DNA from: a virus
Taxonomy: Duplodnaviria; Caudoviricetes
Reading direction: 5' to 3' (one strand)
IMG/VR virus record: IMGVR_UViG_3300042868_009047
DNA length: 64,000 nt
The translations under genes were made by a program, and so were the position numbers. Shown here piece after piece: positions 2,829 to 64,000 of the stretch. Positions within the stretch are counted from its first letter, which is position 1. Each line of letters opens with the position of its first letter. The notes below the pieces were generated by a model. It made no database searches, was not told the DNA's origin, and was given only the letters and a program-made list of their open reading frames with translations.

Positions 2829-3920
2829 ATGAGAATAAATCCAATCGAAAAGCAAAAAATATACAAACAAGCTAAACACAGACTTGGTGCCCCTATTAGA
2901 AAGATTCAATTAGAGGATGAGCAAATGGACTCTCTTCTTGAAATCGCAACAGAAGATTATGTTGAGTTTATTAACAACTGGTTAATTGAACACCAATGGC
3001 CAAGTTTGATTGGTTTAAGTGTTAGTGAGGCTGACCTAACAAGGGCTTTTATTTATAGAAGCTTTGATTTGGTTACTCAATATACCTATTCTTACTCAAA
3101 AATCGTTGGTTTAGGTGCTGGTGAAGGTGGTTATGTACTTAAAAAAGACTATGTTGAATTATCTAAAGGACAACAAATATATGAAATTCCAGCGAATAGG
3201 GAAATAAATGAGGTGTTATGGTTTACCCCAGCTTCTTTAGATCAATCTGTAATTGACCCATTCTTAGGTGTTTGGAATAATCAATTTGGTGCCGAATACA
3301 TGGGTTTAGGTAGTTATTATATTCTACCAGCCTTTGATATCTTAATGAGAACAACGGATAGAAACCTTAAAAATAGAATGATTCGCTCTGAGTTAATATA
3401 TAAGATTACGAATGCACCTGATGGTAAAAAATATCTTCATTTAATGAATACCCCAGGTGGTAAGTTTGATTTTAGGGGTTCAATGCTTGACCAGGGTAAA
3501 TGTTGGTATTGGTATTACGATATTAACCCATTAATTAAAGACGATTGTTTAGCAAAAAACAAAGATATTATTAAATCACCTTCTGATGTTCCGTTGGATA
3601 ATATTTCATTTGATGATTTAAATGATCCAGCTAAAGTTTGGATCAGAAGATATTTTATTGCATTATGTAAAGAAACTTTAGGTAGGGTAAGAGGTACATT
3701 TGGTGGTAAAATACCAGTTCCAGATGCAAATATGGAAATTGAATACCAATCGCTTTTATCAGAAGGTAAAGATGAGATGGTTACACTTAAAAAAGAATTA
3801 GAGGATAGAATGTTTAAATTAAATCCAATAGAAATTCTTAAGAGAATGTCTTCTGAGGCTGAAGAAATTAATAAAGCCCTTAAATTTAGAGCATTCCAAA
3901 AACCAATTAAGATTATATAA
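2829..3920 (+). CDS. Neck/head-completion protein (T4 gp13-like)
   Basis: N-terminus HRLGAPIRKIQLEDEQMDSLL and C-terminal ALCKETLGRVRG match the gp13 pattern. Start moved to ATG 2829. Confidence 0.7.
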   Translation: MRINPIEKQKIYKQAKHRLGAPIRKIQLEDEQMDSLLEIATEDYVEFINNWLIEHQWPSLIGLSVSEADLTRAFIYRSFDLVTQYTYSYSKIVGLGAGEGGYVLKKDYVELSKGQQIYEIPANREINEVLWFTPASLDQSVIDPFLGVWNNQFGAEYMGLGSYYILPAFDILMRTTDRNLKNRMIRSELIYKITNAPDGKKYLHLMNTPGGKFDFRGSMLDQGKCWYWYYDINPLIKDDCLAKNKDIIKSPSDVPLDNISFDDLNDPAKVWIRRYFIALCKETLGRVRGTFGGKIPVPDANMEIEYQSLLSEGKDEMVTLKKELEDRMFKLNPIEILKRMSSEAEEINKALKFRAFQKPIKII

Positions 3921-5620
3921 TGTTTTATACAGCCCTAGATAATAGTGATTATTTTGATTTAGTTGTCACAAAAGATTGTCGTGATTTTTATCGTAATTAT
4001 AGTGAATGTAATTTAATAAACATTAATATTACTGAAGATCTATGTTCAACCCCTGGGAGTGTTCAAACAGAAGAAGTTGAATTAAAGAATATAACCCTTA
4101 CTGGTTATGATAACTTTTTTATACATAATGGTGAAATATCTAACATTAATAATTTCACTGGTGATACAATAGGGTATACGGTTAATCAAGATATTGTTAT
4201 TGATGTCGATAAAAATTTAACATATGTGGTCGAGACTGGGGATACATTCTGTTTTCATGAAATATCAGGTTATAGTGGTAATTATTGTTATGAGATCGAT
4301 CATTTAAACCTTGATAACGGTGTTTACTACAACAAATTAAACGGTGGTTTTTACCAAGGCTTTTATAAAATATTTGGTGAGAACGTTGAATGGTATCCAG
4401 CCAGAGCAAAAATGGGTTGGACCGTTGACATGGTTGTTCATTTTCCTATGGACGTAACAGGTTCAACTGGAACTAGTGGTACTTCAGGAACATCTGGTTC
4501 TTCTGGATCTAACGGTACTAATGGAACTATTGGTACTTCAGGAACATCTGGTTCTTCTGGGTCTAACGGTTCTTCAGGATCTAACGGTACTAATGGCACT
4601 TCAGGAACATCTGGTTCTTCTGGATCATCAGGGAGTTGTGTAACTTTGAACGAGGTTTACCCAAATAATAGTGGTTTTATTTTTTATTTAGGAACAAGAG
4701 CTGAAAATAAATTTGCTGATAAGACTGACATTGAGATACAAAAATTTGAAAATAACTATGAAATCTTACCGTTAAACACAACAAACTTATTCACCTATAA
4801 TAATTTAATAAGTTTAGATGGTTTAACCAATTACATTGGTTATTTTAACTATTATAATGGTTTAATGTATACTGGTAGAAATTACACAACAGATTCTCAA
4901 CCTTTACAATATCATCAGGAATATAGCGATTTAACTTATAATGCATTTGGTATAAGAGTTACCAATGATGGTAGAATTGGTTATAGAACAATATACCCAA
5001 CTGACATATGTTACACTGGGGCGACACAAGAAGTAAGCGGTATAACAAACAACTCATTTATAATGGAACCCGATGATCCTTGTGTTAGTCATACAAAAGC
5101 TCTTATTATTACAAAATACTTTACCATTGAAGAATGTTATACAAAAAAACCAGTTATCAATGTTAATGAAAAAAAGTTTTTAAATATAACTGGAGTGTTT
5201 GAAAGGGATTTTGGATATGGTGATAATTGCCAGTTAAAATACGGTGACTATAAAAAAGGAACCTTCTCAATTTACCTAAACGGATTTCTAGTTTTTAGAA
5301 ATAAAAAATTTGTTGAGGTTATACCACATGAATTAGATACCGATGCGAAATACCAAGAAGGTGTACCGTTTAATATTTCATTTGGTGGTGGTACCCAAAG
5401 TTTAATTGATGCTGTTGTGTTTGATAAGACAAAAGTACTTGGTACCGTTTTAGAAAGATTTTTTGCTGGAACATTTTTAGGTGGTGTTAAATCATTTAAA
5501 ATGTATTGTGTACCTTTGTATACTGTTGAAGTTAAAAAAGAACTTAGAAGTATTGCAGGTATATATAACTTACCAATAATAAACGGTGGAAGACAAATAT
5601 TTATAAAAAACCTATTCTAA
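3920..5620 (+). CDS. Putative virion structural protein (LamG/concanavalin-like C-terminus) with internal Gly-X-Y insert
   Basis: C-terminal FAGTFLGGVKSFKMYCVPLYTVEV resembles the end of LamG-like domains. Coupled to the neck gene by a TAATG overlap. Confidence 0.45.
   Translation: MFYTALDNSDYFDLVVTKDCRDFYRNYSECNLININITEDLCSTPGSVQTEEVELKNITLTGYDNFFIHNGEISNINNFTGDTIGYTVNQDIVIDVDKNLTYVVETGDTFCFHEISGYSGNYCYEIDHLNLDNGVYYNKLNGGFYQGFYKIFGENVEWYPARAKMGWTVDMVVHFPMDVTGSTGTSGTSGTSGSSGSNGTNGTIGTSGTSGSSGSNGSSGSNGTNGTSGTSGSSGSSGSCVTLNEVYPNNSGFIFYLGTRAENKFADKTDIEIQKFENNYEILPLNTTNLFTYNNLISLDGLTNYIGYFNYYNGLMYTGRNYTTDSQPLQYHQEYSDLTYNAFGIRVTNDGRIGYRTIYPTDICYTGATQEVSGITNNSFIMEPDDPCVSHTKALIITKYFTIEECYTKKPVINVNEKKFLNITGVFERDFGYGDNCQLKYGDYKKGTFSIYLNGFLVFRNKKFVEVIPHELDTDAKYQEGVPFNISFGGGTQSLIDAVVFDKTKVLGTVLERFFAGTFLGGVKSFKMYCVPLYTVEVKKELRSIAGIYNLPIINGGRQIFIKNLF
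4460..4636 (+). repeat. In-frame (Gly-X-Y)~19 Ser/Thr/Asn repeat
   Basis: Translates as GST GTS GTS GTS GSS GSN GTN GTI GTS GTS GSS GSN GSS GSN GTN GTS GTS GSS GSS GS. Confidence 0.95.
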
Positions 5621-6021
5621 TGATATTCAGTATAAGACAAAACGCGACATTACCTATTTTGAAAATGAAAGTTTTCAGAGATGGCCGCAACGATTTTAGA
5701 CGTTTCGAAGAGTTAATCGAAAATTGTGTGGTAACATTTGCCATGAAAGATGAAAAAACTGGTATATACAAAGTTGCAAATAAAGCGGCAAATGTTGTAC
5801 TTGAAAATCCTTGTGACGAAAATGGTTACAAAAACTATATCATAACATACCAATTTACAAAAGACGATACCGACAAACCTGGGGTGTTTCTTGGTGAATT
5901 TAAATTAACCTTGTTTGATCTAGCCGACCCAACTGAAGTTTATGGTGAGTTAATAGCACCAATTCAAGAGGAATTATACATACACATCCTCGATTCATTC
6001 GTAAAAACAGATATTATTTAA
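5620..6021 (+). CDS. BppU N-terminal-like structural protein
   Basis: FSIRQNATLPIL...ITYQFTKDDTDKPGVFLGEF pattern typical of BppU_N-like domains. Confidence 0.55.
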   Translation: MIFSIRQNATLPILKMKVFRDGRNDFRRFEELIENCVVTFAMKDEKTGIYKVANKAANVVLENPCDENGYKNYIITYQFTKDDTDKPGVFLGEFKLTLFDLADPTEVYGELIAPIQEELYIHILDSFVKTDII

Positions 6022-6027
6022 CCTTTT

Positions 6028-6058
6028 TTTGTTTTTTTAAGTTTTATACTTATATTTG
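6028..6058 (+). promoter_or_regulatory. Bacteroidota-type primary sigma promoter upstream of DNA polymerase
   Basis: TTTG (6028-6031), 19 nt, TATATTTG (6051-6058); matches the -33/-7 consensus TTTG...TAnnTTTG. Confidence 0.75.
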
Positions 6059-6075
6059 TGCCAAAATAACGAATT

Positions 6076-9000
6076 ATGGCCGAATACAAAATTTCCCTTG
6101 AAGAAATAGAAAAATTTTTAAATGGACACAATGATGAGAAATACATTGTGAATGTTGAGTACGATGCCGAAACTAATCTAATCCATAAGGTTAAACAAGA
6201 TCCTGAAAGAGGTAACTATGTCGAAACAGAACCGTTACTCGCTTTCATGTGGATTAAAAATCTTAATAAGATTAAGGAATTAACCAATTTTTATGGTAAT
6301 AGCGATTCAAAGATTAAATCTGCTAGACAAAGATTTGGTATTGAAATTAAATCTTTAGGTGGTGATCACCCAAAACTACTTGAGGGTTATAGATACTTGG
6401 TCACTTGTAATCAAGGTAATAAAAGAATGTTAGATTTCTTCAGAGAAGGTGGCATCTATGTCTATGACACAAGAAACGATATTAGATCACACTTTTTAAT
6501 GATATCACCTGTTGAACAATACTTTATACACACTGGTAAACGTTTGTTTAAAGGGTATGAAGAATATGATGATATTCATAAATTTATATTTGACTTAGAG
6601 ACAACAGGTTTAGATCCACATATCAATAGGATATTTTTGATTGGTGTCTATACTAATAAAGGTGTTAAAGAAATTATACCAGTTGAGGATGATGATGAAT
6701 CTGAAAGACAAGCAATTACAAAATTCTTCGAGGTTATTAATGACATTAAACCAACAATTATTGCTGGTTATAATAGCGCTAACTTTGACTGGGATTTCTT
6801 TTTTGTTCGTTGTCAAAAACTTGGATTAAATATTCAAGATATAGCTATAACACTTAAACCAGGTGAGCTTATCCAAAGAAAAGAAAAAAGCGTACTTAAA
6901 CTTGGTAATGAGGTGGAAGAATATACACAAACTAATATGTTTGGTTATAGTGTTATTGACATTATCCACTCAGCTAGGCGTGCACAAGCAATTGATTCAA
7001 GTATGAAGTCAGTTGGTTTAAAGTATGTTTGTAAGTATAACAAGATTGCCAAAAAGAATCGTGTTTACATTGTTGGTGATAAAATTGGTAATACATGGTA
7101 CTCAAAGGATAAATTCTATTTTGACGATAGAACTGGTTCGTACACTAAAACAAAACCAGCTTTAGAGTTTATGGATTACATTCGTAGAGAAGACATCCAA
7201 GCTAATCCAGATAAAATATTTGTTTTTGGTGATAACATGACGAGGCAAGGACTTGGTGGTCAAGCAAAAGAAATGCGTGGTGAACCAAATGTTATCGGTG
7301 TTGTAACAAAACATTCACCAGAATCAACACCTGAATCTTATTTTAATGACAAAGATTTTGATTCCATTAAAAAATATATTGATACTGATATTAATCAGAT
7401 AATTGAAAAGATTAAAGAAGGTAAAACTATTGTGTTCCCTAAAATGGGTATTGGTACAGGTTTGGCTCAGTTAGATATGAGAGCACCAAAAACTTTTAAA
7501 TATCTAATAGATTTATTACGTGCATTACGTGATTATATTAACACCTTCCAAGAAGTTGACGGTAAATATATTGTTGAGCGTTACTTGGTTGATGATTTAT
7601 GGGAAACCATGGAAGTTGATGCCGTTTATAATCAATCATCATTCTTGTTGGCTAAATTGGTACCGACAACGTACCAAAGGGTATCGACCATGGGTACAGC
7701 TGGGTTATGGAAGTTATTGATGATGACATATTCATTTGAAAATGATTTAGCGATACCTGTATCAGATGTTAAAAGAGATTACACGGGTGGTTTATCAAGG
7801 TTATTTAAAGTTGGATACTCAACCACTTTAAGAAAGATGGACTACAATTCACTATACCCAGCTATTCAATTGGCTCATGATGTATTTCCGAGTGTTGATG
7901 TTAACGGTGCAATGAAATCGATGTTAAAGTATTTCCACACTGAACGTTTTAACGCTAAGAAATTATCTGACAAGTACAAAAAAGAGGGTAATTACCAATT
8001 AGCTGACAAATATAAACGTAAACAGTTACCACTTAAGATCTTTATTAACTCGATGTTCGGTGCCCTTGGAGCACCAATGGCTTTCCAATGGGCTGAAATT
8101 GATGTCAGTGAACGTATTACATGTACGGCAAGACAATACCTTAGACTGATGGTTACATTTTTTGTTAAACGTGGTTACACACCTTTGGTACTTGATACGG
8201 ATGGTGTGAACTTTATGGCCCCTAAAAACGGTGAGCACTATACATATATTGGTAAAGGATTAAACGATGAAGTTGAAGCTGGTAAAGAATATACAGGTGT
8301 TAAAGCTATAGTCGCTGAATTTAACGATACGTACATGCGTGGTGAGATGGGCCTTGGTTTGGATGGTATTTGGCCAGCAACCATAAACCTATCAAGAAAA
8401 AACTACGCTTTATTAGAAGATGATGGATCAATTAGTTTAACTGGTAATAGTATCAAGTCAAAAGCTATGCCTGTTTATATTGAGGAGTTTTTAGCTAAAG
8501 GCATGAAAATGTTATTAAACGGCCATGGTTATGATTTTGTTCAATATTACTATGAATACGCTGAAAAGGTTTATAATAAAGAGATACCGTTAGCAAAAAT
8601 TGCCACAAAATCTAGAGTTAAGAAATCAATAAACGCTTACATAAATCGTGGTGGTGATAAAAATGGCAGACAATTGGCTAAACAAGCTCACATGGAGTTA
8701 GCGATTAAACATGATATTGATGTTAATCTTGGTGATACAATTTATTACGTTAATAACGGTAAAACAAAATCGCATGGTGATGCTCAAGAAGATAAACACG
8801 GTGAAATGTACGCAACATTAGTACCAAATGATATTATTGAGAACCAACCAGATTATATTGGTGAATATAACGTACCAAAATATTTGGAAGCCTTAAATAA
8901 AAAGGTTGAACCGCTATTAGTTGCTTTCTCTCTTGATGTTAGAGATAAAATTTTAATTAAAAAATCTGGTGAAAGAACAATGTTCTTAAGATCTGAATTA

Positions 9001-9177
9001 GATTTAGTAAATAACCAGCCAACCGATATTGAAGACCAAGACACCTTGGAAGAATTTTTCACACCATCCCCAATGGAAAAAGAATTCTGGGCTAAAATGA
9101 AATATGAATCTGATTATTGGTTTTCAGATGAAATAAGATTTAAAATACCTGGTCTAGATGAAGAATTTACGGTTTAG
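6076..9177 (+). CDS. polB: DNA polymerase family B with inserted ~128-aa domain
   Basis: ExoI FDLETTG, ExoII YNSANFD, ExoIII YLVDD; polymerase motifs DYNSLYP, KIFINSMFG, LDTDG. Confidence 0.95.
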   Translation: MAEYKISLEEIEKFLNGHNDEKYIVNVEYDAETNLIHKVKQDPERGNYVETEPLLAFMWIKNLNKIKELTNFYGNSDSKIKSARQRFGIEIKSLGGDHPKLLEGYRYLVTCNQGNKRMLDFFREGGIYVYDTRNDIRSHFLMISPVEQYFIHTGKRLFKGYEEYDDIHKFIFDLETTGLDPHINRIFLIGVYTNKGVKEIIPVEDDDESERQAITKFFEVINDIKPTIIAGYNSANFDWDFFFVRCQKLGLNIQDIAITLKPGELIQRKEKSVLKLGNEVEEYTQTNMFGYSVIDIIHSARRAQAIDSSMKSVGLKYVCKYNKIAKKNRVYIVGDKIGNTWYSKDKFYFDDRTGSYTKTKPALEFMDYIRREDIQANPDKIFVFGDNMTRQGLGGQAKEMRGEPNVIGVVTKHSPESTPESYFNDKDFDSIKKYIDTDINQIIEKIKEGKTIVFPKMGIGTGLAQLDMRAPKTFKYLIDLLRALRDYINTFQEVDGKYIVERYLVDDLWETMEVDAVYNQSSFLLAKLVPTTYQRVSTMGTAGLWKLLMMTYSFENDLAIPVSDVKRDYTGGLSRLFKVGYSTTLRKMDYNSLYPAIQLAHDVFPSVDVNGAMKSMLKYFHTERFNAKKLSDKYKKEGNYQLADKYKRKQLPLKIFINSMFGALGAPMAFQWAEIDVSERITCTARQYLRLMVTFFVKRGYTPLVLDTDGVNFMAPKNGEHYTYIGKGLNDEVEAGKEYTGVKAIVAEFNDTYMRGEMGLGLDGIWPATINLSRKNYALLEDDGSISLTGNSIKSKAMPVYIEEFLAKGMKMLLNGHGYDFVQYYYEYAEKVYNKEIPLAKIATKSRVKKSINAYINRGGDKNGRQLAKQAHMELAIKHDIDVNLGDTIYYVNNGKTKSHGDAQEDKHGEMYATLVPNDIIENQPDYIGEYNVPKYLEALNKKVEPLLVAFSLDVRDKILIKKSGERTMFLRSELDLVNNQPTDIEDQDTLEEFFTPSPMEKEFWAKMKYESDYWFSDEIRFKIPGLDEEFTV

Positions 9178-9201
9178 TTGAAATATTACTCAAATCACCG
9201 A

Positions 9202-9208
9202 TATTTAT
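9202..9208 (+). promoter_or_regulatory. TATTTAT putative late promoter, inside inverted repeat 9198-9221
   Basis: CCGATATTT-atagta-AAATATCGG; ATG at 9222. Confidence 0.45.
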
Positions 9209-9221
9209 AGTAAAATATCGG

Positions 9222-9794
9222 ATGAACACTAATAAAGATATAAACGAATTTATTGATGCAGATGGTGATATAATTAGTGGTGATAAAAAATACATTAATT
9301 ACGTTAACACCACTCATGATACAACTGATGCTACTATTTTAAAAACTAGACAACCGTTTGTTTTTCAAAACTATAGAAGATATTACGGTGAATCTGTATT
9401 ACCTTTTAATAACGAAGCAGATTATTGTAAAAGCAACCCTAAGAAATTCTATGAATTTTTGGGTAAAAAAGGTATGGAACATACTTTTGAGGATTATTTT
9501 ACTGAAGTAAAACAAAGAAAAGATGTTAAACCTGTCATTGACCCCAAAGATAAATTAAAAGAAATTGCCAAAGAAAAAGCGTTTAAAATGCTTGAGGATC
9601 TTATTTCAAAAAGAACGGACAATGATTACCTTATTTCAAAGAATATGCCAACGAGTATAGAGGAAGTTAAAGATAAAGAAAAATTGCTTTTTGATAAATT
9701 TGACAAAATTCTTGAATTTTTTAAGAACAACTTAAATGAAGGTGAGAAAAAATTATTAATGTCTTATTTTGAAGACTCATTAAAAAATGGATAA
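9222..9794 (+). CDS. Hypothetical phage protein
   Basis: 190-aa ORF overlapping the next gene; no recognised motif. Confidence 0.7.
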   Translation: MNTNKDINEFIDADGDIISGDKKYINYVNTTHDTTDATILKTRQPFVFQNYRRYYGESVLPFNNEADYCKSNPKKFYEFLGKKGMEHTFEDYFTEVKQRKDVKPVIDPKDKLKEIAKEKAFKMLEDLISKRTDNDYLISKNMPTSIEEVKDKEKLLFDKFDKILEFFKNNLNEGEKKLLMSYFEDSLKNG

Positions 9795-14103: not shown

Positions 14104-14408
14104 TGATAGTATTTAAAGACCAAATAAAAGCTTATAAAGCAATCACAAGTGATATCTTAAACCAAATAGAATATAAAACTGTTTGGTCAGGTAAAAGAAT
14201 TGATATTGGTGATAAAGTTTTATATGCGTTTGTATACCCTTTAAATTCAGAGGATTATAAATTAGCAACGTTTCTTGAACGTGAATTAGGTGAAGTTAAT
14301 CAAATGTTTACCTATCTTCAAACAATAAAAGGTATTATACCAGTATTAAAATATAAAAATGATAATCTGGTAAGAGATTTAATCATAGAAGAAGAGAATG
14401 AGTCATAA
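14103..14408 (+). CDS. Hypothetical protein
   Basis: 101-aa ORF coupled to both neighbours by overlaps. Confidence 0.6.
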   Translation: MIVFKDQIKAYKAITSDILNQIEYKTVWSGKRIDIGDKVLYAFVYPLNSEDYKLATFLERELGEVNQMFTYLQTIKGIIPVLKYKNDNLVRDLIIEEENES

Positions 14409-15834
14409 AATAAGCGTTGTTTTCTCAACAAGAAAGATAGATGAAAATTTTATTGAGCATGTTAAGAAAACCTGTATGTATAAAGGTGTTGAAGTTTTAC
14501 CATATGAAAATAATGGTGAATATTCTTTAACGGAAATATACAATAAAGGTTTAAAAGATGCGTCAAGCGATATTATTATTTTTTGTCACGATGATATCCT
14601 GTTTGAAACAAAAAATTGGGGTGAAAAGGTTTTAAAAGCTTTTGAAAAAAACCCCGAATACGGTATTCTTGGCGTTGCTGGGACAAACCATATGGTTAGT
14701 GGTATGTGGTGGGAAGTACGTAGTGCAATGCATGGTACAGTAAAACATACTGACGGTACAAAGGTATGGGCAAACAAATACTCCGAAAATTACGGTAATC
14801 AATTAAAAGAGATGGTTGCTGTGGATGGTTTATTTATCGCTGTTGACAGAACCAGAATAGAAAATATTTTTGATGATCGATTTAAAGGTTTTCACTTTTA
14901 TGATATATCATTTTGTTTATCAAACTATATTAATGGTGTTGATATTGGGTTAATATCAAACATAACAATATTACATAAGTCTGTTGGTCAGGTTAATGAA
15001 CAATGGGTTGAAAATAAAACTTTATTTGAAGAAATATATGGTGGGGAATTACCAATTTGTTTAAATGAGAATAATAAACATATTCTTTTTGATAAAGATT
15101 TACCAAAAATTGATATGTATGTTCTTTGCTGGAACGAAGAAAAAATTATACCTTACTTTTTAAAGCATTACGAAAATTATGTTTCAAATATATATGTCTA
15201 TGATAATAAATCAAACGATGGTGGTACCAAATTATTAAAATCACACCCAAAGGTTACCGTAATACCATATGATACCAAAGGTGAGATTAGGGATGATACT
15301 TATTTACAGATAAAAAATAATGCCTGGAAAAACTCAATTGGTAAGGCAGACATTGTTATTGTCTGTGATATGGATGAATTTTTACATAGCGATGATTTAA
15401 AAAAATCGATCATTAAGTTTTATGAAAGTGACTCAACTATCATTAAACCAACTGGTTATGACATGATTGTAGATGAGTTTGAATTTAATTATGGTGATGA
15501 ATTAACTAATCTTGTTAAAACTGGATATAAAAACCAACTATTTGATAAACTAGTTATGTTTAAAACAAAAAATATAACTGAAATGAACTATAACGGTGGT
15601 TGTCATGTTGCAGCACCAAGAGGTAATAAAGTTAAATTATTTGAAGGTGAATTTTTACTTTTACATTATAAAAGACTTGGTTTAAAATATTTTTTAAATA
15701 AAATGTCACTTTATAAAAAAAGGTTAAGTGAGTTTAATAAAAAATATAAACTTGGTTATGAATATGAGTTTAATAAAAATAAACACACTGAAGATTTTAA
15801 TGAATCTTTGGGTAAAATATCTGATGTTATTTAG
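14398..15834 (+). CDS. Two-domain GT-A glycosyltransferase (GT2-like fusion)
   Basis: N-domain YNKGL...IFCHDD...FHFYDISF; C-domain LCWNEEKIIPYFLKHY...YDNKSND...VCDMDEF. Confidence 0.75.
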   Translation: MSHKISVVFSTRKIDENFIEHVKKTCMYKGVEVLPYENNGEYSLTEIYNKGLKDASSDIIIFCHDDILFETKNWGEKVLKAFEKNPEYGILGVAGTNHMVSGMWWEVRSAMHGTVKHTDGTKVWANKYSENYGNQLKEMVAVDGLFIAVDRTRIENIFDDRFKGFHFYDISFCLSNYINGVDIGLISNITILHKSVGQVNEQWVENKTLFEEIYGGELPICLNENNKHILFDKDLPKIDMYVLCWNEEKIIPYFLKHYENYVSNIYVYDNKSNDGGTKLLKSHPKVTVIPYDTKGEIRDDTYLQIKNNAWKNSIGKADIVIVCDMDEFLHSDDLKKSIIKFYESDSTIIKPTGYDMIVDEFEFNYGDELTNLVKTGYKNQLFDKLVMFKTKNITEMNYNGGCHVAAPRGNKVKLFEGEFLLLHYKRLGLKYFLNKMSLYKKRLSEFNKKYKLGYEYEFNKNKHTEDFNESLGKISDVI

Positions 15835-15866
15835 TTTTCATAACTATTTAAATTAAAAAATATTAT

Positions 15867-16862
15867 ATGGGATTTTTTAGGATTAAAAAAACAACAAAAG
15901 ATAGTGATAACAATCAGGTTATTTATGATAAAACAGACAATTTTATAAAAGAGGAAAGATTGTCCGACACAGAAAAAACAACAATAAAAAAAAGCTATGT
16001 GGATACAAATAAAAGTGAGTCGTATATGATAAAAAAAACAGTAGTTAAAAAAAATAATCTTGTTGACGTAACAAAATATTTTGAAAAAAAAGAACTTGTG
16101 GTTGATTACTCTTTACCAGAAGTTACAGAAAATTTTGGTATTATAGACAATATTAATACAATCACACCTTTCCCTTTTAGACAAAAAAAATTGGCTGTTT
16201 TTATCCATATGTTTTATCCAGATCTATGGAGTACCTTAGATAGTTATTTAGATAACATTAAATGTAAGTTTGATTTATATATTAACGCTGTAATAGATAA
16301 CTATGATAAAGATGTTATACATAAGATAGTTGATAAATATCCTAACGCAAAAATTATTAAAAATATTAATAAAGGTAGAGATATTGGTGGTTTAATAACC
16401 ATGTCAAAGTATATAATAAAAAATCAGTACGATTCCGTTTATTTTATACACACAAAAAAAAGCCCACATTTAAAAAGTGGTAACACTTGGAGAAATGATA
16501 TGTTAATAGCGTTAATGGGTGATGAAAACAAAGTTAATAATCTTATTAAAGATATAAGGTATTATGAGTTTGGTCTGATAACTCCAGGTTTATATAAAAC
16601 AAATTCCATGGGTAGTAACCACAATAATTTAAGAAGATTGATGCAGTTATATAAAATTGATTATGACTTAAAACAATTAGAATTTTCAGCTGGAACATTT
16701 TTTTTATGTAGTGCGGAATTAATTGAACAGATAGGTATGCTAACGGATTTATCATATTTTGAAGATGGTTCTGATCTTGATGGGCAAATGGCTCACGCAT
16801 TTGAAAGATTTTTACCTATTTTAACAATAAAAAAATTAAATAAAACTATTAAATATGTCTAA
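15867..16862 (+). CDS. Rhamnan synthesis protein F (RgpF)-like
   Basis: HMFYPDL, NKGRDIG, HTKKSPH, WRNDM, AGTFF, AHAFERF. Confidence 0.8.
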   Translation: MGFFRIKKTTKDSDNNQVIYDKTDNFIKEERLSDTEKTTIKKSYVDTNKSESYMIKKTVVKKNNLVDVTKYFEKKELVVDYSLPEVTENFGIIDNINTITPFPFRQKKLAVFIHMFYPDLWSTLDSYLDNIKCKFDLYINAVIDNYDKDVIHKIVDKYPNAKIIKNINKGRDIGGLITMSKYIIKNQYDSVYFIHTKKSPHLKSGNTWRNDMLIALMGDENKVNNLIKDIRYYEFGLITPGLYKTNSMGSNHNNLRRLMQLYKIDYDLKQLEFSAGTFFLCSAELIEQIGMLTDLSYFEDGSDLDGQMAHAFERFLPILTIKKLNKTIKYV

Positions 16863-17937
16863 ACCAAAAATTATTTGTTTTTACCTTCCGCAATTTCACC
16901 CTTTTGCTGAAAACGATCAATTCTGGGGTCGTGGTTTTACTGAGTGGAATAATTTATATGATGTAAAAATATTCCATAAAAACCAAAGATTTATAAGGAC
17001 ATCATCCGAATTTGGTGATTATGATTTACGGAGCTATGCCGTAAGAAAAAGACACGCTGAGTTAGCTAAAGAACATGGTATAGACGGGTTTTGTTTATAT
17101 CATTATTGGTTTTATGGTCACCCAGGTAATAAAGTTATGTATGAAGTTGCTGAAAGAATGCTTGAGGATGGTGAACCTAACATTAATTTTTGTTTTGAAT
17201 GGGCTAATGAACCCTGGACAAGAACTTGGGATGGTATGGAAAAAAACTACCTAATAAAACAGGAATATGGTACTGAAGAGGATTGGACAGAACATTTTAA
17301 TTATTTATTAAAATTTTTTAAACACAAGAATTACATAAAAGTTGATAATAAACCGATGTTTCTTGTTTATAGAATGGGTCATTTTAAAGAGTTCGATAAA
17401 TTTAAAAAACATTTTGATGATTTAGCTAAGAAAGAAGGTTTTGATGGTATTATTTTTTCACAAACTTTAAACCATTTTAATGAAGATGGTAGTAATGATG
17501 GTGTTAATAAAAATGCTGATGCGTATATTGAGTATCATCCAATGTATGTTAATAGGTTTTCTGAACCAGAACCAGAAAGTAATGATAATGTAACCATATT
17601 TTATGCACCTAAAAAATGGGAAAACATAACTAACCTAAAAAAACCAAATGATGTTGGTATTAAACCTTATATTCGTGGTTTTTATAGTGGTTGGGACTCA
17701 TCCCCAAGAGCTAAAAACAGAGCATCAACAATTGATTTATACAACGACCCAAAAAACTTTGAGTTTTATTTAAAGAAACAATTAGAAAATGTTGTTAATG
17801 ATAATAATGAACCGTATAATTACTTATTTATTTTTGCTTGGAATGAGTGGGGTGAGGGTGCTGTAATTGAACCAAGTGATCTGTATGGTAACCAATATTT
17901 ACTGGCTATAAAAGACGCATTAAATGGTATCAAATAA
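16855..17937 (+). CDS. WbsX-family / GH99-like glycan-active protein
   Basis: FYLPQFHP..END.FWG.GFTEW, GIDGFCLYHYWF, WANEPWTRTWDG, AWNEWGEG. Confidence 0.88.
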   Translation: MSKPKIICFYLPQFHPFAENDQFWGRGFTEWNNLYDVKIFHKNQRFIRTSSEFGDYDLRSYAVRKRHAELAKEHGIDGFCLYHYWFYGHPGNKVMYEVAERMLEDGEPNINFCFEWANEPWTRTWDGMEKNYLIKQEYGTEEDWTEHFNYLLKFFKHKNYIKVDNKPMFLVYRMGHFKEFDKFKKHFDDLAKKEGFDGIIFSQTLNHFNEDGSNDGVNKNADAYIEYHPMYVNRFSEPEPESNDNVTIFYAPKKWENITNLKKPNDVGIKPYIRGFYSGWDSSPRAKNRASTIDLYNDPKNFEFYLKKQLENVVNDNNEPYNYLFIFAWNEWGEGAVIEPSDLYGNQYLLAIKDALNGIK

Positions 17938-41997: not shown

Positions 41998-44751
41998 ATG
42001 AAAAAATTATTATACATCGCCCCACACCTTTCCACAGGCGGTTTACCACAGTACTTAACTAAAAAAATTGAATTACTTAGAGATTCGTTTGACATATATG
42101 TTGTTGAATGGTCTAACCACACTGGTGGCGTGTTGGTTGTACAAAGAGATAAAATAACTTCAATGGTTGCGCCAGATAAATTCTTTACTCTGGAAGAAAA
42201 TAAAATGCAACTGATTGATATTATTAACCAGGTGTCTCCAGACATTATACACTTGGAAGAAATCCCTGAATATTTCATGGATTTTGACGTTGCAAAAGAA
42301 ATTTACAAAAAAGATCGTAATTATGTTATCGTAGAAACTTCTCACGATTCATCATATGATGCGACACAAAAGAAATTTTACCCAGACAAATTTATGTTTG
42401 TATCTGATTGGCAAATTAAATTATTTGAATCAATTGATATCCCAAAAGTTTTGGTTGAATATCCTATTGAATATAAACAAAGACCAAATAGAGAAAATGC
42501 GTTAAGAGATCTTAATTTAGATCCTAATAAAAAACACGTATTACACGTTGGTTTGTTCACGCCAAGAAAAAATCAAAAAGAATTTTTTGAATATGCTAAG
42601 TCTTTACCTGATTATGTTTTTCACTCTGTCGGAAATCAAGCTGGTAACTTTGCTCATTACTGGGAACCTTTAATGGTTGATAAACCAAGTAATGTTGTTT
42701 GGCACGGTGAAAGAAAAGATGTTGATAGGTTCTATCAAGCAATGGATCTATTCTTATTCACGTCCAGAGGTACTGATAATGATAAAGAAACTATGCCATT
42801 GGTTATTCGTGAGGCAATTTCCTGGAACTTACCAATTTTAATTTACAACCTTGGTGTTTATTTGAATTACTTTGATAAATTTGATAACGTAAAGTATTTA
42901 GATTTCTCTGATTTTAATAAAAACTGTTCCTTAATTACCGAAGTTCTTGAAAACGGTATAGAGTTTCAACCAAAAACAAAAGAAATTAACAGGGAAAAAG
43001 AAGCTATTATAATTTCTACATACCCAACAACAAAAAGCGTATTTGATACAACAGTTGAATGTATTTTAGCTGCTAAAAAAACTGGTAGAAAAGTTATTTT
43101 AACCTCACATTTACCAATTTCCCCAGATTTACAGAGTTTAGTTGACTATTGTATATATGACAAAAATAATATTCTAACCAAACACACATTCTACTCACAG
43201 AGTAGATACAGCGAAGCTGATTTCTTTGCGTTTGTTAATCTAAGAGGTGAAGGTAATGATATTTATCATGGTCCAACTTGTTACACAAACTATTATAACG
43301 GTGCCGCATTAGCAAATGAGTTAGGTATGGAAAAAGTTTATTTCCTTAACTATGATTACGTGCTTAAAAATGATTCGTATTTAGATAACATTTCAAATGT
43401 ATTGGATACAAAATCTGCTTATTTTGGTGATATGCCAAATAATCCAGAAGGTCATTCTGTTACAACGTTTTTTATGGGTATTAAACCATCATTTTATTTA
43501 GATACCGTTGAACCAATTTTTGATGTCCATGGTTACGAGAATTTGAGAACCAAATGGGGTTCGTTCAGTAATGGGTATGAGAATATGATGTATTTTGCTT
43601 TTAAAGATAAAATGAATCAGATTGAATTAGTTGGTGAAGAGCAATTTAAAACTGAGGTAGCAACTAATTTCCACCATAGAGATTATTCTAGAGTGGAGTA
43701 CTTTACAGTATTACCGACAAATATACCAAATTCATTTGCTGTTTACTTCCAAGTATCAAATTCAGTTGATAGTAGAATTGTTAATATCACTATTAATAAA
43801 AATGGATCTTTACTTAAAGAAGAGCAAATTACGGTAACAGGTAGAGGTGCTTGGTATAATATGGTTGGTTATAATTTAGATGAAAATGCTGAATATACGG
43901 TTGACTATCAATCATTTGATAAAGATACACAGCAGTTTATTGAGAGTAAATTTATAAAGATTGATAATAATTATATCACAAATGTTTTACCGAATAACGG
44001 TAATTTTGATTATAAAGGTGATCACAATAGTGTTAATTTATTAACTAACAACGATAGTTCAAAACCTAAAATTAGAATTGTGCATTTAGTTACTGAACCA
44101 TCAAGTAACCCCAAAGAGTTACGATCAGCGTTTTCTTTAAAAGATTTTGCTAATACTTTTGATAACGTTGAGTACTATCAAAAAGTTAATTTAATCTATA
44201 AGGATTTACCACCAGCTGATAATTGCAATAGACCACAGGATGTCGCATCTGAACCAGGATACTTCAAGCTGTCCCCAGGGCACTATGGTTGTTTCTTAGC
44301 GCATAAAAATGGTATTACTTTACCAGACAACAACCAATATGATTTTATCTTAGTATTTGAGGGTGATGTTATCATTGACGCACCTTATCAAGAATTATAC
44401 GATAATCTAATCAGATGGTCACAATTGGCTAAAGAAGAAAACGTGGATATGGTTGGTTTTGGTAACTACTGTGCCGAAAGATATAGTGGTGAACGCGAAG
44501 ATTTAATGCTTAATTTAAGTATTTTTGCGCCAGCACAATCCTACTTGATTAATAGAGAAAAATTACCTACTTTTGTGGAAAGATTTGAAACTTGTAAATG
44601 GGATGCATTTGATTTGTGGATGACCAAGGTTGCTAAATTACATGGTGCTATGGCTAACAAGATCTATACTAAACATTTACCAGGTTATTCTATCGTAGAT
44701 AGAAAAGATAAAAATAAAGATAACGACTACGCAGCAATTTTTACTAATTAA
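41998..44751 (+). CDS. Multi-domain glycosyltransferase (GT4-like N-terminus, unknown middle, GT25-like C-terminus)
   Basis: N: HLSTGGLPQY, HVGLFTPRKNQ, DLFLFTS...ETMPLVIREA. C: GHYGCFLAH...LVFEGDV. Confidence 0.75.
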   Translation: MKKLLYIAPHLSTGGLPQYLTKKIELLRDSFDIYVVEWSNHTGGVLVVQRDKITSMVAPDKFFTLEENKMQLIDIINQVSPDIIHLEEIPEYFMDFDVAKEIYKKDRNYVIVETSHDSSYDATQKKFYPDKFMFVSDWQIKLFESIDIPKVLVEYPIEYKQRPNRENALRDLNLDPNKKHVLHVGLFTPRKNQKEFFEYAKSLPDYVFHSVGNQAGNFAHYWEPLMVDKPSNVVWHGERKDVDRFYQAMDLFLFTSRGTDNDKETMPLVIREAISWNLPILIYNLGVYLNYFDKFDNVKYLDFSDFNKNCSLITEVLENGIEFQPKTKEINREKEAIIISTYPTTKSVFDTTVECILAAKKTGRKVILTSHLPISPDLQSLVDYCIYDKNNILTKHTFYSQSRYSEADFFAFVNLRGEGNDIYHGPTCYTNYYNGAALANELGMEKVYFLNYDYVLKNDSYLDNISNVLDTKSAYFGDMPNNPEGHSVTTFFMGIKPSFYLDTVEPIFDVHGYENLRTKWGSFSNGYENMMYFAFKDKMNQIELVGEEQFKTEVATNFHHRDYSRVEYFTVLPTNIPNSFAVYFQVSNSVDSRIVNITINKNGSLLKEEQITVTGRGAWYNMVGYNLDENAEYTVDYQSFDKDTQQFIESKFIKIDNNYITNVLPNNGNFDYKGDHNSVNLLTNNDSSKPKIRIVHLVTEPSSNPKELRSAFSLKDFANTFDNVEYYQKVNLIYKDLPPADNCNRPQDVASEPGYFKLSPGHYGCFLAHKNGITLPDNNQYDFILVFEGDVIIDAPYQELYDNLIRWSQLAKEENVDMVGFGNYCAERYSGEREDLMLNLSIFAPAQSYLINREKLPTFVERFETCKWDAFDLWMTKVAKLHGAMANKIYTKHLPGYSIVDRKDKNKDNDYAAIFTN

Positions 44752-45344: not shown

Positions 45345-46291
45345 AAATTTGCCAAGTACATCCAGGATGCGGAATCCCAGTTCCACCACCTAATTGGGGC
45401 GCTGTAGAAAAAATAGTATGGGAGTTTACCCAGAATTTAAGATTATTAGGACATGAGGTTGATATTAAATACGCCAATGAGATTAAACCAGGTGAATATG
45501 ATGTTGTTCACGTACACATGGCCAATTTATGTCATTTTTTACACGATAGGGGTATACCATACATTTATCAATTACATGATCACCATGCGTACTACTACGG
45601 TAAAGGTTCTTACGTGTTTAACCAAAATAACAGAGCTATTCTCGAATCACAGGTTTCTTTGATGCCTGGTAAATTCTTGGTACCTTATTTTGAAACAGAA
45701 AAAGCTGTTTATTTTTCACATGGTGTTAATACAGATTTTTATCACCCATCAGATGTTAGGCCAAAAGAACATAAATTATTATGTTTAGCAAATAATGGTT
45801 TAGCTGGTATGGATGGTTATGATAGAAAAGGTTTTGGTTTTGCAATCCAAGCCGCAATGTCGAGAAATCTACCAATCACAATTGCTGGACCAAGAAATAA
45901 CCAGAATTTCTTTAATGAAAACCCATGGGTTAATGGTTACACAAAATTATCAATCGAATGGGAGCCAAATCAAGATGAATTAGTTGATTTGTATCATAGA
46001 CACACAATCTTCATGCATCCTTCTGAATTAGAAGCTGGGCACCCTAATTTAACGATATTAGAGGCCGCTGCATGTGGTTTACCCATTAACGGGGCCATTG
46101 AGATTGAAACTGATTTTAACGGTATGTGGAGAGCACCTAGAAAGGTTACAGACATTGTACGTGGTTTGGACGACATCATCACCAACTACGATACATATCG
46201 TGAAAGAGCTATTCAACATGCCGAGTCCTTATCATGGTATAACAGATCAAAAGAATTATTAGAGGTTTACAAACAATACACACAGCGATGA
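45341..46291 (+). CDS. GT4 family glycosyltransferase
   Basis: PPPNWGAVE, HGVNTDFY, HPSELEAGHPNLTILEAAACGLP. Confidence 0.85.
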   Translation: MKICQVHPGCGIPVPPPNWGAVEKIVWEFTQNLRLLGHEVDIKYANEIKPGEYDVVHVHMANLCHFLHDRGIPYIYQLHDHHAYYYGKGSYVFNQNNRAILESQVSLMPGKFLVPYFETEKAVYFSHGVNTDFYHPSDVRPKEHKLLCLANNGLAGMDGYDRKGFGFAIQAAMSRNLPITIAGPRNNQNFFNENPWVNGYTKLSIEWEPNQDELVDLYHRHTIFMHPSELEAGHPNLTILEAAACGLPINGAIEIETDFNGMWRAPRKVTDIVRGLDDIITNYDTYRERAIQHAESLSWYNRSKELLEVYKQYTQR

Positions 46292-47913
46292 GAATATTAG
46301 GGCTTTCAGCTGGATCACATTCTTGTGGTATAAGTTTAATAGAAGATGGTAAAATAATTTTTTCTTTAGAAGAAGAAAGGTGTACAAGGGTAAAAGTTTA
46401 CAAAGATTTTTACGGTAATTATTTTAGGTACCCAAAACAATCAATTATTGAGGCTATTAATAAATTTAATTTAGACCTAAATTCAGTTGATTACATAACA
46501 AGTTACTATCCTAAACATGAGGTTAAAATATTTTGGAAAAGTATGAATCTAGGTGTATTCCCAGAACAAAAATTTATATTTATTGACCACCATGATTCAC
46601 ATGCAGCCACTGCTTATTATATGAGCGGTTTTGATGAGGACACACTTGTTGTTACTATGGATGCTAGCGGTGGACAATATAGCGCAAAATATTTTATTGG
46701 TACCAATGGTAGTTTAGATTATATTGACGGTTTAGATTTAACAAAAAAATCTTTTGGCCATTATTACGCAATGTTAACAGAATTTTTAGGTTTTAGACGA
46801 CTTAAAGATGAAGGTAAAGTTGTTGGTATGGCAGCTCATGGTAGACATGACACTGTTTCATACCAAGCTTTTAATGAATGTATTAAAATTGAGGGTATAC
46901 ACACAGACAAGGATCAATCAGATGTATTATTTGGTCAACTGTACCTTGATTTTTATACCAAGTACTATAAAACATTAGGTTCTAGGGTATTTTTTGGTAC
47001 AAAAGCTGACTTAGCTTACACAGGACAACTTGTCTTTGAAGAAAAAATATTACAGGTGTTTAACAACTTACATAACATGTATCCTAATGTTAAAAAAGTT
47101 GCTGTAGCTGGTGGTGTTTTTGCTAATGTAAAATTAAATAAACGTATTAATGAACTATACTGGGTTGATGAAATGTTTGTGGCACCCCCAATGGGTGACG
47201 AAGGTTGTCCACTTGGTTGTGTTTTATTAGTGCATAAAATGTTTACACCAGACTTTAAACCATTTAGATTGGACAACATGTTTATGGGTACCTCATATAC
47301 AGATGTTGAGGTTGGTGAACATTATTGGGACCAAAATAAATTCTCAAGAGAAATATTTACACCAGAATTAACCGCAAAATATTTAGCAGAAGGTAAAATT
47401 ATGGGTGTTTTTAACGGTAGATATGAACACGGTCCAAGAGCTTTGGGTAATCGTAGTATCATTGGTGAGGTAACTAATCCAGATACTTACGATAAGCTCA
47501 ATAATAAACTCCAAAGAAACGATTTCATGCCATTTGCACCAGCTGTTATGGAAGAACATGCTGATACGATCTTTAATGTCACTAAATCAAGATATACAGC
47601 TGAATTTATGACCATGTTGTATGATACAAGACCTGAATGGGCTGACAGAATACCAACAGTTGTTCACCCCAAGGATAAAACAGCTAGAATACAAATAGTA
47701 ACTAAAACAAGCAACCCAACATTTTATAAAATATTGGATGAATACAATAAAATAACTGGCGTACCCGTTCTTTTAAATACATCATTTAATGTGCATGAAG
47801 AACCGATTGTATGTCACCCGAACGAAGCGTTTAACCATTTAGAAAACGATGTCGTTGACTTAATAATAATAAACAATTTTATCTATAAAAAATATGAAGG
47901 AAATATTAACTAA
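46288..47913 (+). CDS. O-carbamoyltransferase (NodU/CmcH/TobZ family)
   Basis: EEER..R.K, HHDSHAA, GGVFANVKLN, GPRALGNRSI, FMPFAP, TARIQ, LLNTSFN. Confidence 0.93.
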   Translation: MRILGLSAGSHSCGISLIEDGKIIFSLEEERCTRVKVYKDFYGNYFRYPKQSIIEAINKFNLDLNSVDYITSYYPKHEVKIFWKSMNLGVFPEQKFIFIDHHDSHAATAYYMSGFDEDTLVVTMDASGGQYSAKYFIGTNGSLDYIDGLDLTKKSFGHYYAMLTEFLGFRRLKDEGKVVGMAAHGRHDTVSYQAFNECIKIEGIHTDKDQSDVLFGQLYLDFYTKYYKTLGSRVFFGTKADLAYTGQLVFEEKILQVFNNLHNMYPNVKKVAVAGGVFANVKLNKRINELYWVDEMFVAPPMGDEGCPLGCVLLVHKMFTPDFKPFRLDNMFMGTSYTDVEVGEHYWDQNKFSREIFTPELTAKYLAEGKIMGVFNGRYEHGPRALGNRSIIGEVTNPDTYDKLNNKLQRNDFMPFAPAVMEEHADTIFNVTKSRYTAEFMTMLYDTRPEWADRIPTVVHPKDKTARIQIVTKTSNPTFYKILDEYNKITGVPVLLNTSFNVHEEPIVCHPNEAFNHLENDVVDLIIINNFIYKKYEGNIN

Positions 47914-63999: not shown

Positions 64000-64000
64000 G

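What the first reader, a model, noticed from the sequence alone, without database searches (positions are those of the whole stretch)
7159..7542. Macrodomain-like module inserted in the proofreading domain of the DNA polymerase
Seen: between ExoII (YNSANFD) and ExoIII (RYLVDD) lies a ~128-aa block (aa ~362-489) with IFVFGDN...GLGGQAKEMRGEPNVIGVVTK and VFPKMGIGTGLAQL. It resembles small stand-alone phage proteins of the IFVFG(S/D)N...G(I/C)G(T/C)GLA type (A1S_2505-like). The GIGTGLA loop resembles the diphosphate-binding loop of DarG/Poa1-like macrodomains. Known: DarT toxins ADP-ribosylate ssDNA and stall phage replication, and DarG macrodomains reverse this. Inference: the polymerase may carry a built-in ADP-ribose reader/eraser, an anti-DarTG-type counter-defence at the fork. 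I do not know of this architecture being described.
Basis: partly seen in the sequence, partly recalled or inferred. Interest (0 to 1): 0.8.

Follow-up and report, generated by a model that had tools for sequence, protein, structure and literature searches.

The report
Macro-like domain inside a phage polymerase
An uncultured T4-like phage carries, inside the proofreading part of its DNA polymerase, an intact ~125-residue module whose predicted fold is closest to enzymes that strip ADP-ribose from DNA, so the polymerase may undo a bacterial anti-phage DNA modification itself, though this is untested.

Summary
The family-B polymerase (window 6076-9177, 1033 aa) has a discrete domain at aa 363-488. 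It lies between ExoII and ExoIII and matches Pfam DUF7831 end to end (E 4e-44). Sister polymerases of about 940 aa lack it.

Context gives independent support:
- Elsewhere DUF7831 is fused to NADAR, DUF4326 and YpsA-type SLOG domains.
- In bacterial mobile elements it sits beside SSB, RNase H and relaxase genes.

At least 60 of 80 polymerase inserts keep essentially all 31 conserved residues, and the query keeps 31/31. One sub-lineage and some outliers have degraded inserts.

My best reading is a minimal macro-like ADP-ribose module, probably a hydrolase, placed at the replisome. An anti-DarT role is plausible but not shown.

Phage ADP-ribose erasers are already known (AdfN, AdfM). A polymerase-embedded one was not found in the literature or in 50,697 cultured-phage records. 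I rate it a new variant of a known kind.

The parts
6076..9177 (+). Family-B DNA polymerase gene (1033 aa) that hosts the insertion
   Evidence: ORF list. Pfam DNA_pol_B_exo1, RNase_H_2 and DNA_pol_B. Closest solved relatives are archaeal PolB, E 1e-34.
6589..6609 (+). ExoI motif FDLETTG (aa 172-178; D173, E175)
   Evidence: Invariant in alignment A1.
6769..6798 (+). ExoII motif YNSANFDWDF (aa 232-241; D238)
   Evidence: F237 and D238 are invariant in A1.
7162..7539 (+). Inserted DUF7831 domain (aa 363-488), a predicted minimal macro-like fold
   Evidence: Pfam PF25176 E 3.7e-44. HMM envelope 363-488. Absent from the ~940-aa sister PolBs. AF2 pLDDT 94.7 and 95.0. Macrodomains are the top structural matches.
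7225..7266 (+). First conserved block FGDN-x4-G-x-GGQA (aa 384-397): strand end plus glycine-rich loop
   Evidence: F23, G24, D25, N26, G31, G34 and Q35 are invariant and G33 and A36 nearly invariant across 121 family members. Intact in the query.
7306..7311 (+). Thr411-Lys412 (TK), candidate counterpart of the DarG 'PTK' lysine
   Evidence: K51 is invariant and T50 near-invariant. hhalign pairs it with the Lys of DarG INFPTKRHW, at weak significance.
7438..7467 (+). Second glycine-rich loop PKMGIGTGLA (aa 455-464), a putative phosphate-binding loop
   Evidence: P94, G97, G99, T100 and G101 are near-invariant. Aligned by hhalign with DarG PPLGSGLGGL.
7579..7608 (+). ExoIII motif RYLVDDLWET (aa 502-511; Y503, D507), 14 residues after the insert ends
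   Evidence: Y503, D506 and D507 are invariant. Aligned to the ExoIII helix of archaeal PolB.
7840..7860 (+). Polymerase motif A DYNSLYP (aa 589-595)
   Evidence: D589, S592, L593, Y594 and P595 are invariant.
8194..8205 (+). Polymerase motif C DTDG (aa 707-710)
   Evidence: D707, T708, D709 and G710 are invariant.

Best explanation
The block is a functional, self-folding DUF7831 domain that was captured, most simply once, into a surface loop of the exonuclease domain just before the ExoIII helix. The host lineage is a group of large uncultured T4-superfamily phages.

DUF7831 is best read as a stripped-down macrodomain of the TARG1/DarG/Poa1p type. It has four strands, two glycine-rich loops that would grip the diphosphate of ADP-ribose, and an invariant Asn and Lys for the distal ribose.

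The most likely job is to bind, and probably hydrolyse, an ADP-ribose linkage. Because it is built into the replicative polymerase, the most economical target is ADP-ribose attached to single-stranded template DNA, the product of DarT-type defence toxins that stall phage polymerases. On this reading the enzyme clears the adduct where replication stalls.

Shown: the insertion, its family, its conservation, the fold ranking and the domain/gene contexts.

Inferred: ligand identity, catalysis, DNA as substrate, and the anti-DarT role.
For: (1) It is a discrete domain with a full-length Pfam DUF7831 match. It is absent from the ~940-aa sister PolBs.

(3) hhalign lines up IGIPTK with DarG INFPTK, and P..GIGTG with PPLGSGLG, collinearly.

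(4) Fusion partners elsewhere are NADAR, DUF4326, YpsA/cpYpsA SLOG, DUF488-N3a, and a kinase plus Mu-F polyvalent protein. PMC9503650 reports DUF4326 and viral SLOG as typically fused to Macro and NADAR.

(5) The gene context in bacteria is ssDNA-centred. More than 30 loci show SSB-DUF7831-unknown-SSB-RNase H, and 10 loci sit next to a relaxase.

(6) At least 60 of 80 PolB inserts keep 29-31 of the 31 conserved residues although the polymerases have diverged to 49% identity. The query keeps 31/31.

(7) There is precedent. DarT adducts block phage replication, and phages escape through polymerase mutations, AdfN (NADAR) or AdfM (macrodomain) (PMC11481870, PMC11825919, PMC13309987).
Against: - Foldseek finds no significant PDB match.
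- There is no Pfam Macro, NCBIfam or PADLOC hit.
- The hhalign score is matched by the reversed DarG profile (19.2 vs 19.8) and reached by 6 of 150 column shuffles. The N-terminal motif did not align in the expected register.
- The model has only four strands, so it is not a canonical macro sheet.
- A sub-lineage 73-79% identical to the query polymerase has mutated the glycine loops, and some relatives carry decayed remnants. The function is therefore dispensable in places.
- Iyer et al. argue that phage ADP-ribose domains mostly target soluble derivatives.
- No DarT is present in the window, and the host is unknown.
Confidence: 0.45

Rival explanations
1. The domain processes soluble NAD-derived molecules, for example cyclic ADP-ribose-type immune signals, ADP-ribose-1''-phosphate or O-acetyl-ADP-ribose. 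The polymerase is merely a convenient early-expressed carrier, and no DNA adduct is involved.
For: Stand-alone and polyvalent forms are fused to SLOG, NADAR and DUF4326. Iyer et al. interpret these as acting mostly on diffusible ADP-ribose derivatives in phages. Most family members are free 120-160-aa proteins.
Against: Insertion at one fixed site of a replicative polymerase has been kept across PolBs down to 49% identity. The repeated neighbourhood with SSB, RNase H and relaxase points to DNA. The closest folds, DarG and TARG1, are the macro class described as acting on DNA adducts (DarG: PMC11825919; TARG1: my own knowledge).
Confidence: 0.2
2. The domain is a non-catalytic reader or a structural/protein-interaction module. 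It might sense ADP-ribose or NAD level, or dock a replisome partner, and so modulate exonuclease/polymerase switching.
For: Some macrodomains are pure readers. One PolB sub-lineage tolerates loss of the glycine loops while keeping the domain folded in place. The insert surface evolves faster than the polymerase core.
Against: The same polar and glycine residues are invariant in free proteins and in inserts, including a Lys/Asn pair typical of catalytic sites. The fusions are to enzymes.
Confidence: 0.15
3. The macro resemblance is only a shared Rossmann-like arrangement. DUF7831 would then be another kind of nucleotide- or phosphate-handling enzyme, for instance acting on terminal phosphates of DNA or nucleotides.
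Confidence: 0.15
4. The insert is a tolerated passenger with no present function in this phage and is on its way to decay.
For: Decayed or motif-mutated versions exist in related polymerases (P0128-P0137, P0173, P0185-7, P0201, P0203-6). Insert-less sister phages seem to do without any DUF7831 in the parts sequenced.
Against: The query and its nearest relatives keep 31 of 31 conserved residues. Most lineages do so across deep divergence, which requires purifying selection.
Confidence: 0.05

Closest known systems
DarG / TARG1 (OARD1) / Poa1p class of macrodomains (ADP-ribosyl glycohydrolases; DarG removes ADP-ribose from thymidine in ssDNA)
   Different: The domain is about 125 aa with four strands, against about 150 aa and a six/seven-stranded sheet. 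There is no detectable sequence-profile membership. It has no DarT partner and no DarT-binding C-terminal domain. It is embedded in a polymerase.
Phage anti-DarT factors AdfM (PhiKZ gp104, macrodomain) and AdfN (T4 30.3, NADAR)
   Same: They are phage-encoded enzymes that remove DarT-made ADP-ribose from phage DNA. AdfM is concentrated where phage DNA replicates. DUF7831 is itself fused to NADAR in other proteins.
   Different: Those are free proteins with experimentally shown activity. Here the module is an internal domain of the polymerase, belongs to a different and uncharacterised family, and has no assay.
Read-ahead lesion sensing by archaeal family-B polymerases (uracil/hypoxanthine pocket in the N-terminal domain; my own knowledge)
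   Same: A family-B polymerase has a built-in site that inspects template ssDNA for a modified base. This PolB is closest to archaeal PolB among solved structures.
   Different: The archaeal pocket only senses and stalls. It is part of the ancestral N-terminal domain, not an inserted enzyme-like module.
Polyvalent proteins of phages and conjugative elements (Iyer et al. 2017, as cited in PMC9503650)
   Same: DUF7831 occurs in 2,400-6,700-aa multidomain proteins and in a Mu-F fusion. It also occurs next to relaxases. This fits the anti-defence toolkit delivered with incoming DNA.
   Different: In the window the domain is not in such a protein but inside an essential replication enzyme.

Membership tests
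Pfam DUF7831 (PF25176) | Full-length HMM match above the gathering score | tested here: met
   149.8 bits against a cut-off of 27, profile positions 2-117 of 118, aa 364-479.
Family-B DNA polymerase with 3'-5' exonuclease | ExoI, ExoII and ExoIII motifs and polymerase motifs A, B and C with catalytic acids | tested here: met
   D173/E175, D238, Y503/D507, D589, K654/N658/G662 and D707/D709 are invariant in A1. Pfam and PDB matches agree.
Macrodomain (TARG1/DarG-like) | Three-layer alpha/beta/alpha macro fold as the closest structural class | tested here: inconclusive
Macrodomain (TARG1/DarG-like) | Complete six/seven-stranded mixed sheet | tested here: not met
   DSSP on both models shows four strands and lacks the C-terminal strand(s). 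DarG has about 33 extra residues between the first loop and the PTK strand.
Macrodomain (TARG1/DarG-like) | Sequence-profile similarity to Macro (PF01661) or DarG | tested here: not met
   No PF01661 hit at E<=1. hhalign gives P 0.017, the reversed profile scores 19.2 vs 19.8, and 6 of 150 shuffles are as high. No PADLOC hit.
Macrodomain (TARG1/DarG-like) | Catalytic lysine at the end of the 'PTK' strand and a G-x-G-x-G diphosphate loop | tested here: inconclusive
   K412 (K51) is invariant. P-x2-G-x-G-x-G is nearly invariant across the family and intact in the query. hhalign pairs them with the DarG counterparts, at weak significance. No residue-level structural superposition was available.
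Macrodomain (TARG1/DarG-like) | Binds or hydrolyses ADP-ribose conjugates | not testable with these tools
   Needs biochemistry.
DarTG toxin-antitoxin (DarG antitoxin) | Adjacent DarT gene and a C-terminal DarT-binding domain | tested here: not met
   No DarT-like ORF in six frames of the window. The domain is internal to PolB and has no DarG C-terminal part.
   No NCBIfam model matched at E<=10. I could not verify that the library holds that family, and the two papers naming A1S_2505 are unrelated.

The most novel reading that the evidence does not exclude
A replicative DNA polymerase has acquired its own adduct eraser. The DUF7831 module inside the exonuclease domain would remove ADP-ribose from template or primer DNA in cis when the enzyme meets a DarT-type lesion. 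This would make the replisome intrinsically resistant to DNA-ADP-ribosylating defence. It would also identify DUF7831 (about 2,600 clusters in phages, giant viruses and conjugative elements) as a new minimal family of DNA ADP-ribosyl hydrolases.
Probability: 0.27. Interest if true: 0.85.

Novelty: new variant of a known kind. Interest (0 to 1): 0.65.

Why it matters
If the reading is right, three things follow.
- It would give a function to a large domain-of-unknown-function family, with 2,603 representative clusters.
- It would extend the macrodomain superfamily to a minimal four-stranded form.
- It would show a new layout for counter-defence, in which the repair activity is built into the replicative polymerase instead of being a free protein (AdfN, AdfM).

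It also offers a natural experiment. Closely related polymerases exist with an intact insert, with mutated glycine loops, with decayed remnants and with no insert. These can be compared directly for bypass of ADP-ribosylated templates.

Tried and rejected
- PDB sequence and profile searches gave only a weak triosephosphate-isomerase loop-6 match (E 0.01) and no macrodomain.
- NCBIfam and PADLOC gave no hit for the domain.
- hhalign against DarG is weak, as the shuffle and reversal controls show. My expected alignment of the first motif (GDN...GGQA against VNTVN...GRGIA) was not reproduced when the N-terminal parts were compared alone, so I do not claim it.
- The last homologue search returned only near-identical DarG fragments, so it did not deepen the macro profile.
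- I tested for complementary distribution. Seven insert-less sister phage records had no stand-alone DUF7831, and none of 11 records had Macro or NADAR. These records are only 34-75% complete.
- No DarT and no second DUF7831 are present in the window.
- The tree of 338 domains is too poorly resolved to prove a single capture. It needs 5 changes on the ML tree, and 1 is not excluded.
- The paper on DUF488 and the rhodanese-phosphatase superfamily is not held.
- The Atlas gave nothing for the conserved 550-640-aa neighbour.
- No whole genome is held for the window.
I could therefore not check residue-level superposition, or where the pocket lies relative to the DNA channel.

Full report
**What is there**

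The window carries one long ORF at 6076-9177 (+) encoding a 1033-aa family-B DNA polymerase. Pfam finds the PolB exonuclease and polymerase domains. Between them it finds a full-length match to PF25176 (DUF7831) at aa 364-479, E 3.7e-44, profile positions 2-117 of 118. PHROGs gives phrog_2072, function unknown.

The exonuclease and polymerase motifs are present and invariant in a 17-sequence alignment:
- ExoI: FDLETTG, aa 172-178.
- ExoII: YNSANFDWDF, aa 232-241.
- ExoIII: RYLVDDLWET, aa 502-511.
- Pol motifs A and C.

The polymerase therefore looks fully functional.

**It is a real insertion**

A search of 5.8 billion proteins found about 80 polymerase clusters, 49-95% identical to the query, that carry PF25176 at the same place. 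It also found a large sister group of about 940-aa polymerases that lack it. In the alignment the sisters have about 25 residues where the query has about 145, between TGSYT and FQEVDG. My family HMM places the domain at aa 363-488, window 7162-7539.

Among solved structures the polymerase is closest to archaeal PolB (E 1e-34). The match breaks exactly at the insert and resumes at the helix that carries ExoIII. The insert therefore sits in a surface loop, and its C-terminal end lies 14 residues before Y503/D507.

**The phage**

The window also encodes a T4-type portal, major capsid protein and large terminase, an SNF2 helicase and many glycosyltransferases. The capsid protein is only 31-33% identical to the nearest cultured phages, Microcystis phage Mel-JY01 and Flavobacterium phage immuto.

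IMG/VR holds a 206-kb contig with a 93% identical polymerase. CheckV rates it 69% complete, which suggests a genome near 300 kb.

No cultured phage among 50,697 records has the domain inside a polymerase. In all rows listed of the 102 records that have it, it lies in small genes annotated 'hypothetical protein' or unannotated.

**The fold**

AlphaFold2 with 121 stand-alone homologues gives pLDDT 94.7. With 44 polymerase inserts only it gives 95.0, with the same secondary structure.

**Sequence-level tests**

I collected six DarG proteins from DarT loci and compared profiles. hhalign aligns 60 columns collinearly. DUF7831 IGIPTK pairs with DarG INFPTKRHW (the catalytic lysine of DarG/TARG1, by my knowledge), and P..GIGTGLAQL pairs with PPLGSGLGGL.

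The score is weak, P 0.017. The reversed DarG profile scores almost the same, and 6 of 150 column shuffles reach it. The first motif did not align in the register I expected. Pfam Macro, NCBIfam and PADLOC do not match. Sequence therefore does not establish membership.

**Context, the strongest independent evidence**

The family is large: 2,603 representative clusters, in phages, giant viruses and bacteria. Fusions found here:
- NADAR: P0391, P0419, P0432.
- DUF4326: P0391, P0405, P0419.
- cpYpsA / YpsA SLOG: P0429, L024.
- DUF488-N3a: many Acidobacteriota proteins.
- A P-loop kinase plus UvrB-interaction domain plus phage Mu-F: P0376.
- Sigma-70 or HTH regions.
- Proteins of 2,400-6,700 aa.

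Iyer et al. (PMC9503650) report that viral YpsA-like SLOG domains and DUF4326 are typically fused to Macro and NADAR domains. They place all of these in ADP-ribose processing. DUF7831 thus occupies the architectural slot usually held by Macro.

In Acidobacteriota, more than 30 loci (several per genome) show the cluster SLOG or sigma-54 activator, SSB, DUF7831, an unknown 550-640-aa protein, SSB, RNase H. The giant DUF7831-DUF488 proteins lie directly after a MobA/VirD2-type relaxase. Both settings involve single-stranded DNA entering or replicating in a cell.

**Selection**

Of 80 polymerase inserts, at least 60 keep 29-31 of the 31 conserved family residues although the polymerases have diverged to 49% identity. 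The query keeps all 31. At short range the insert changes faster than the polymerase core (89.7% vs 96-98% for P0123). It then plateaus near 50% identity. That pattern suggests a fixed active site under a fast-changing surface.

One sub-lineage 73-79% identical to the query (P0128-P0137) has replaced the glycine-loop residues (G24S/D/E, G34E/Q/A, G101D in P0131-P0136, L102S/E). P0173, P0185-7, P0201 and P0203-6 carry decayed remnants. The activity has therefore been lost repeatedly.

Records of insert-less sister phages show no stand-alone copy, and no canonical Macro or NADAR. They are only 34-75% complete.

**Interpretation**

The most likely reading (about 0.45) is a minimal macro-like ADP-ribose module that is active in this phage. 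Its position in the polymerase makes it likely to act on ADP-ribosylated DNA at the replisome.

Published work makes this coherent. DarT toxins ADP-ribosylate ssDNA and stop phage replication, and some phages escape through polymerase mutations. Others carry free erasers: AdfN, a NADAR, and AdfM, a macrodomain concentrated in the phage nucleus.

The rivals remain open: action on soluble ADP-ribose derivatives, a reader or structural role, another phosphate-handling chemistry, or a decaying passenger.

**Novelty**

No paper in the library mentions DUF7831. The two broad surveys of viral NAD/ADP-ribose systems do not describe a polymerase-embedded macro-like domain. The counter-defence principle itself is known. 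I classify the finding as a new variant of a known kind, with moderate to high interest that depends on biochemical confirmation.

Noticed in passing
window 50629-64000 (-): An ORF of more than 4456 aa, open at the window end, is a giant collagen-repeat fibre. Pfam Collagen matches in 18 stretches, and there is a C-terminal Peptidase_S74 intramolecular chaperone. Its GGN-rich repeats explain the jump in G+C from 0.32 to 0.45, so this is not a host junction.
   Followed up: partly
window 3920-5620 (+): A 566-aa ORF just upstream of the polymerase region contains a long GTSGTSGSSGSNG-type glycine/serine repeat. It may be another fibre-like protein. It was not analysed.
   Followed up: no
window 14398-17937, 41998-44751, 46288-47913 (+): Several glycosyltransferases (GT2 family, RgpF, WbsX, GT1) and a carbamoyltransferase lie between replication and head genes. 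This suggests phage-encoded glycan modification.
   Followed up: no
L003, L004, L020, L021, L026, L033, L038, L046 and about 25 more loci (Acidobacteriota), around 4700-9600 of each locus: A conserved multi-copy cluster runs YAcAr-SLOG or sigma-54 activator, SSB, DUF7831, an unknown 550-640-aa protein, SSB, RNase H. The unknown protein has no Pfam, PADLOC or Atlas lead.
   Followed up: partly
L005:5923-10503, L008:3444-8576, L010, L015, L018, L030 (Acidobacteriota): Proteins of 1,500-2,000 aa have N-terminal DUF7831, then DUF488-N3a, then about 1,200 unassigned residues. They lie directly downstream of a MobA/VirD2-type relaxase. They look like polyvalent proteins of conjugative elements.
   Followed up: partly
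L069:2107-12327 (Neisseriaceae MAG); also proteins P0368, P0377, P0484 etc.: DUF7831 is embedded in ORFs of 3,400-6,700 aa with no other Pfam domain recognised in the one scanned.
   Followed up: no
protein P0173 (PolB relative, 1392 aa): This relative carries intein/LAGLIDADG Pfam domains as well as a strongly decayed DUF7831 (44.6 bits, 11 of 31 key residues).
   Followed up: no
proteins P0128-P0137 (PolB 73-79% identical to the query): A coherent sub-lineage has co-ordinated replacement of the glycine-loop residues but retains Asn26, Arg40 and Asn44, and Lys51 in 8 of 10 members (Arg in the other two). This may mean a changed ligand rather than simple decay.
   Followed up: partly
window 7438-7467 (aa 455-464): The loop P-x-x-GIGTGLA resembles loop 6 (PVWAIGTGLA) of triosephosphate isomerase (profile E 0.01). 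It is probably a convergent phosphate-gripping loop.
   Followed up: no
BFVD entries A0A7M1RU68, A0A7M1RTM7, A0A7M1RV35 (crAss-like phages cr272_1, cr130_1, cr131_1): Proteins of 1,278-1,451 aa in crAss-like phages contain a DUF7831-like fold (E 1e-6). I could not determine what the rest of these proteins is. If they are replication proteins, this would be a second, independent fusion.
   Followed up: no
L002 (Caulobacter phage Ccr10) 2563-4699 and related phiCbK-like phages: The stand-alone DUF7831 gene lies immediately downstream of rIIB in Caulobacter and Brevundimonas phages.
   Followed up: no
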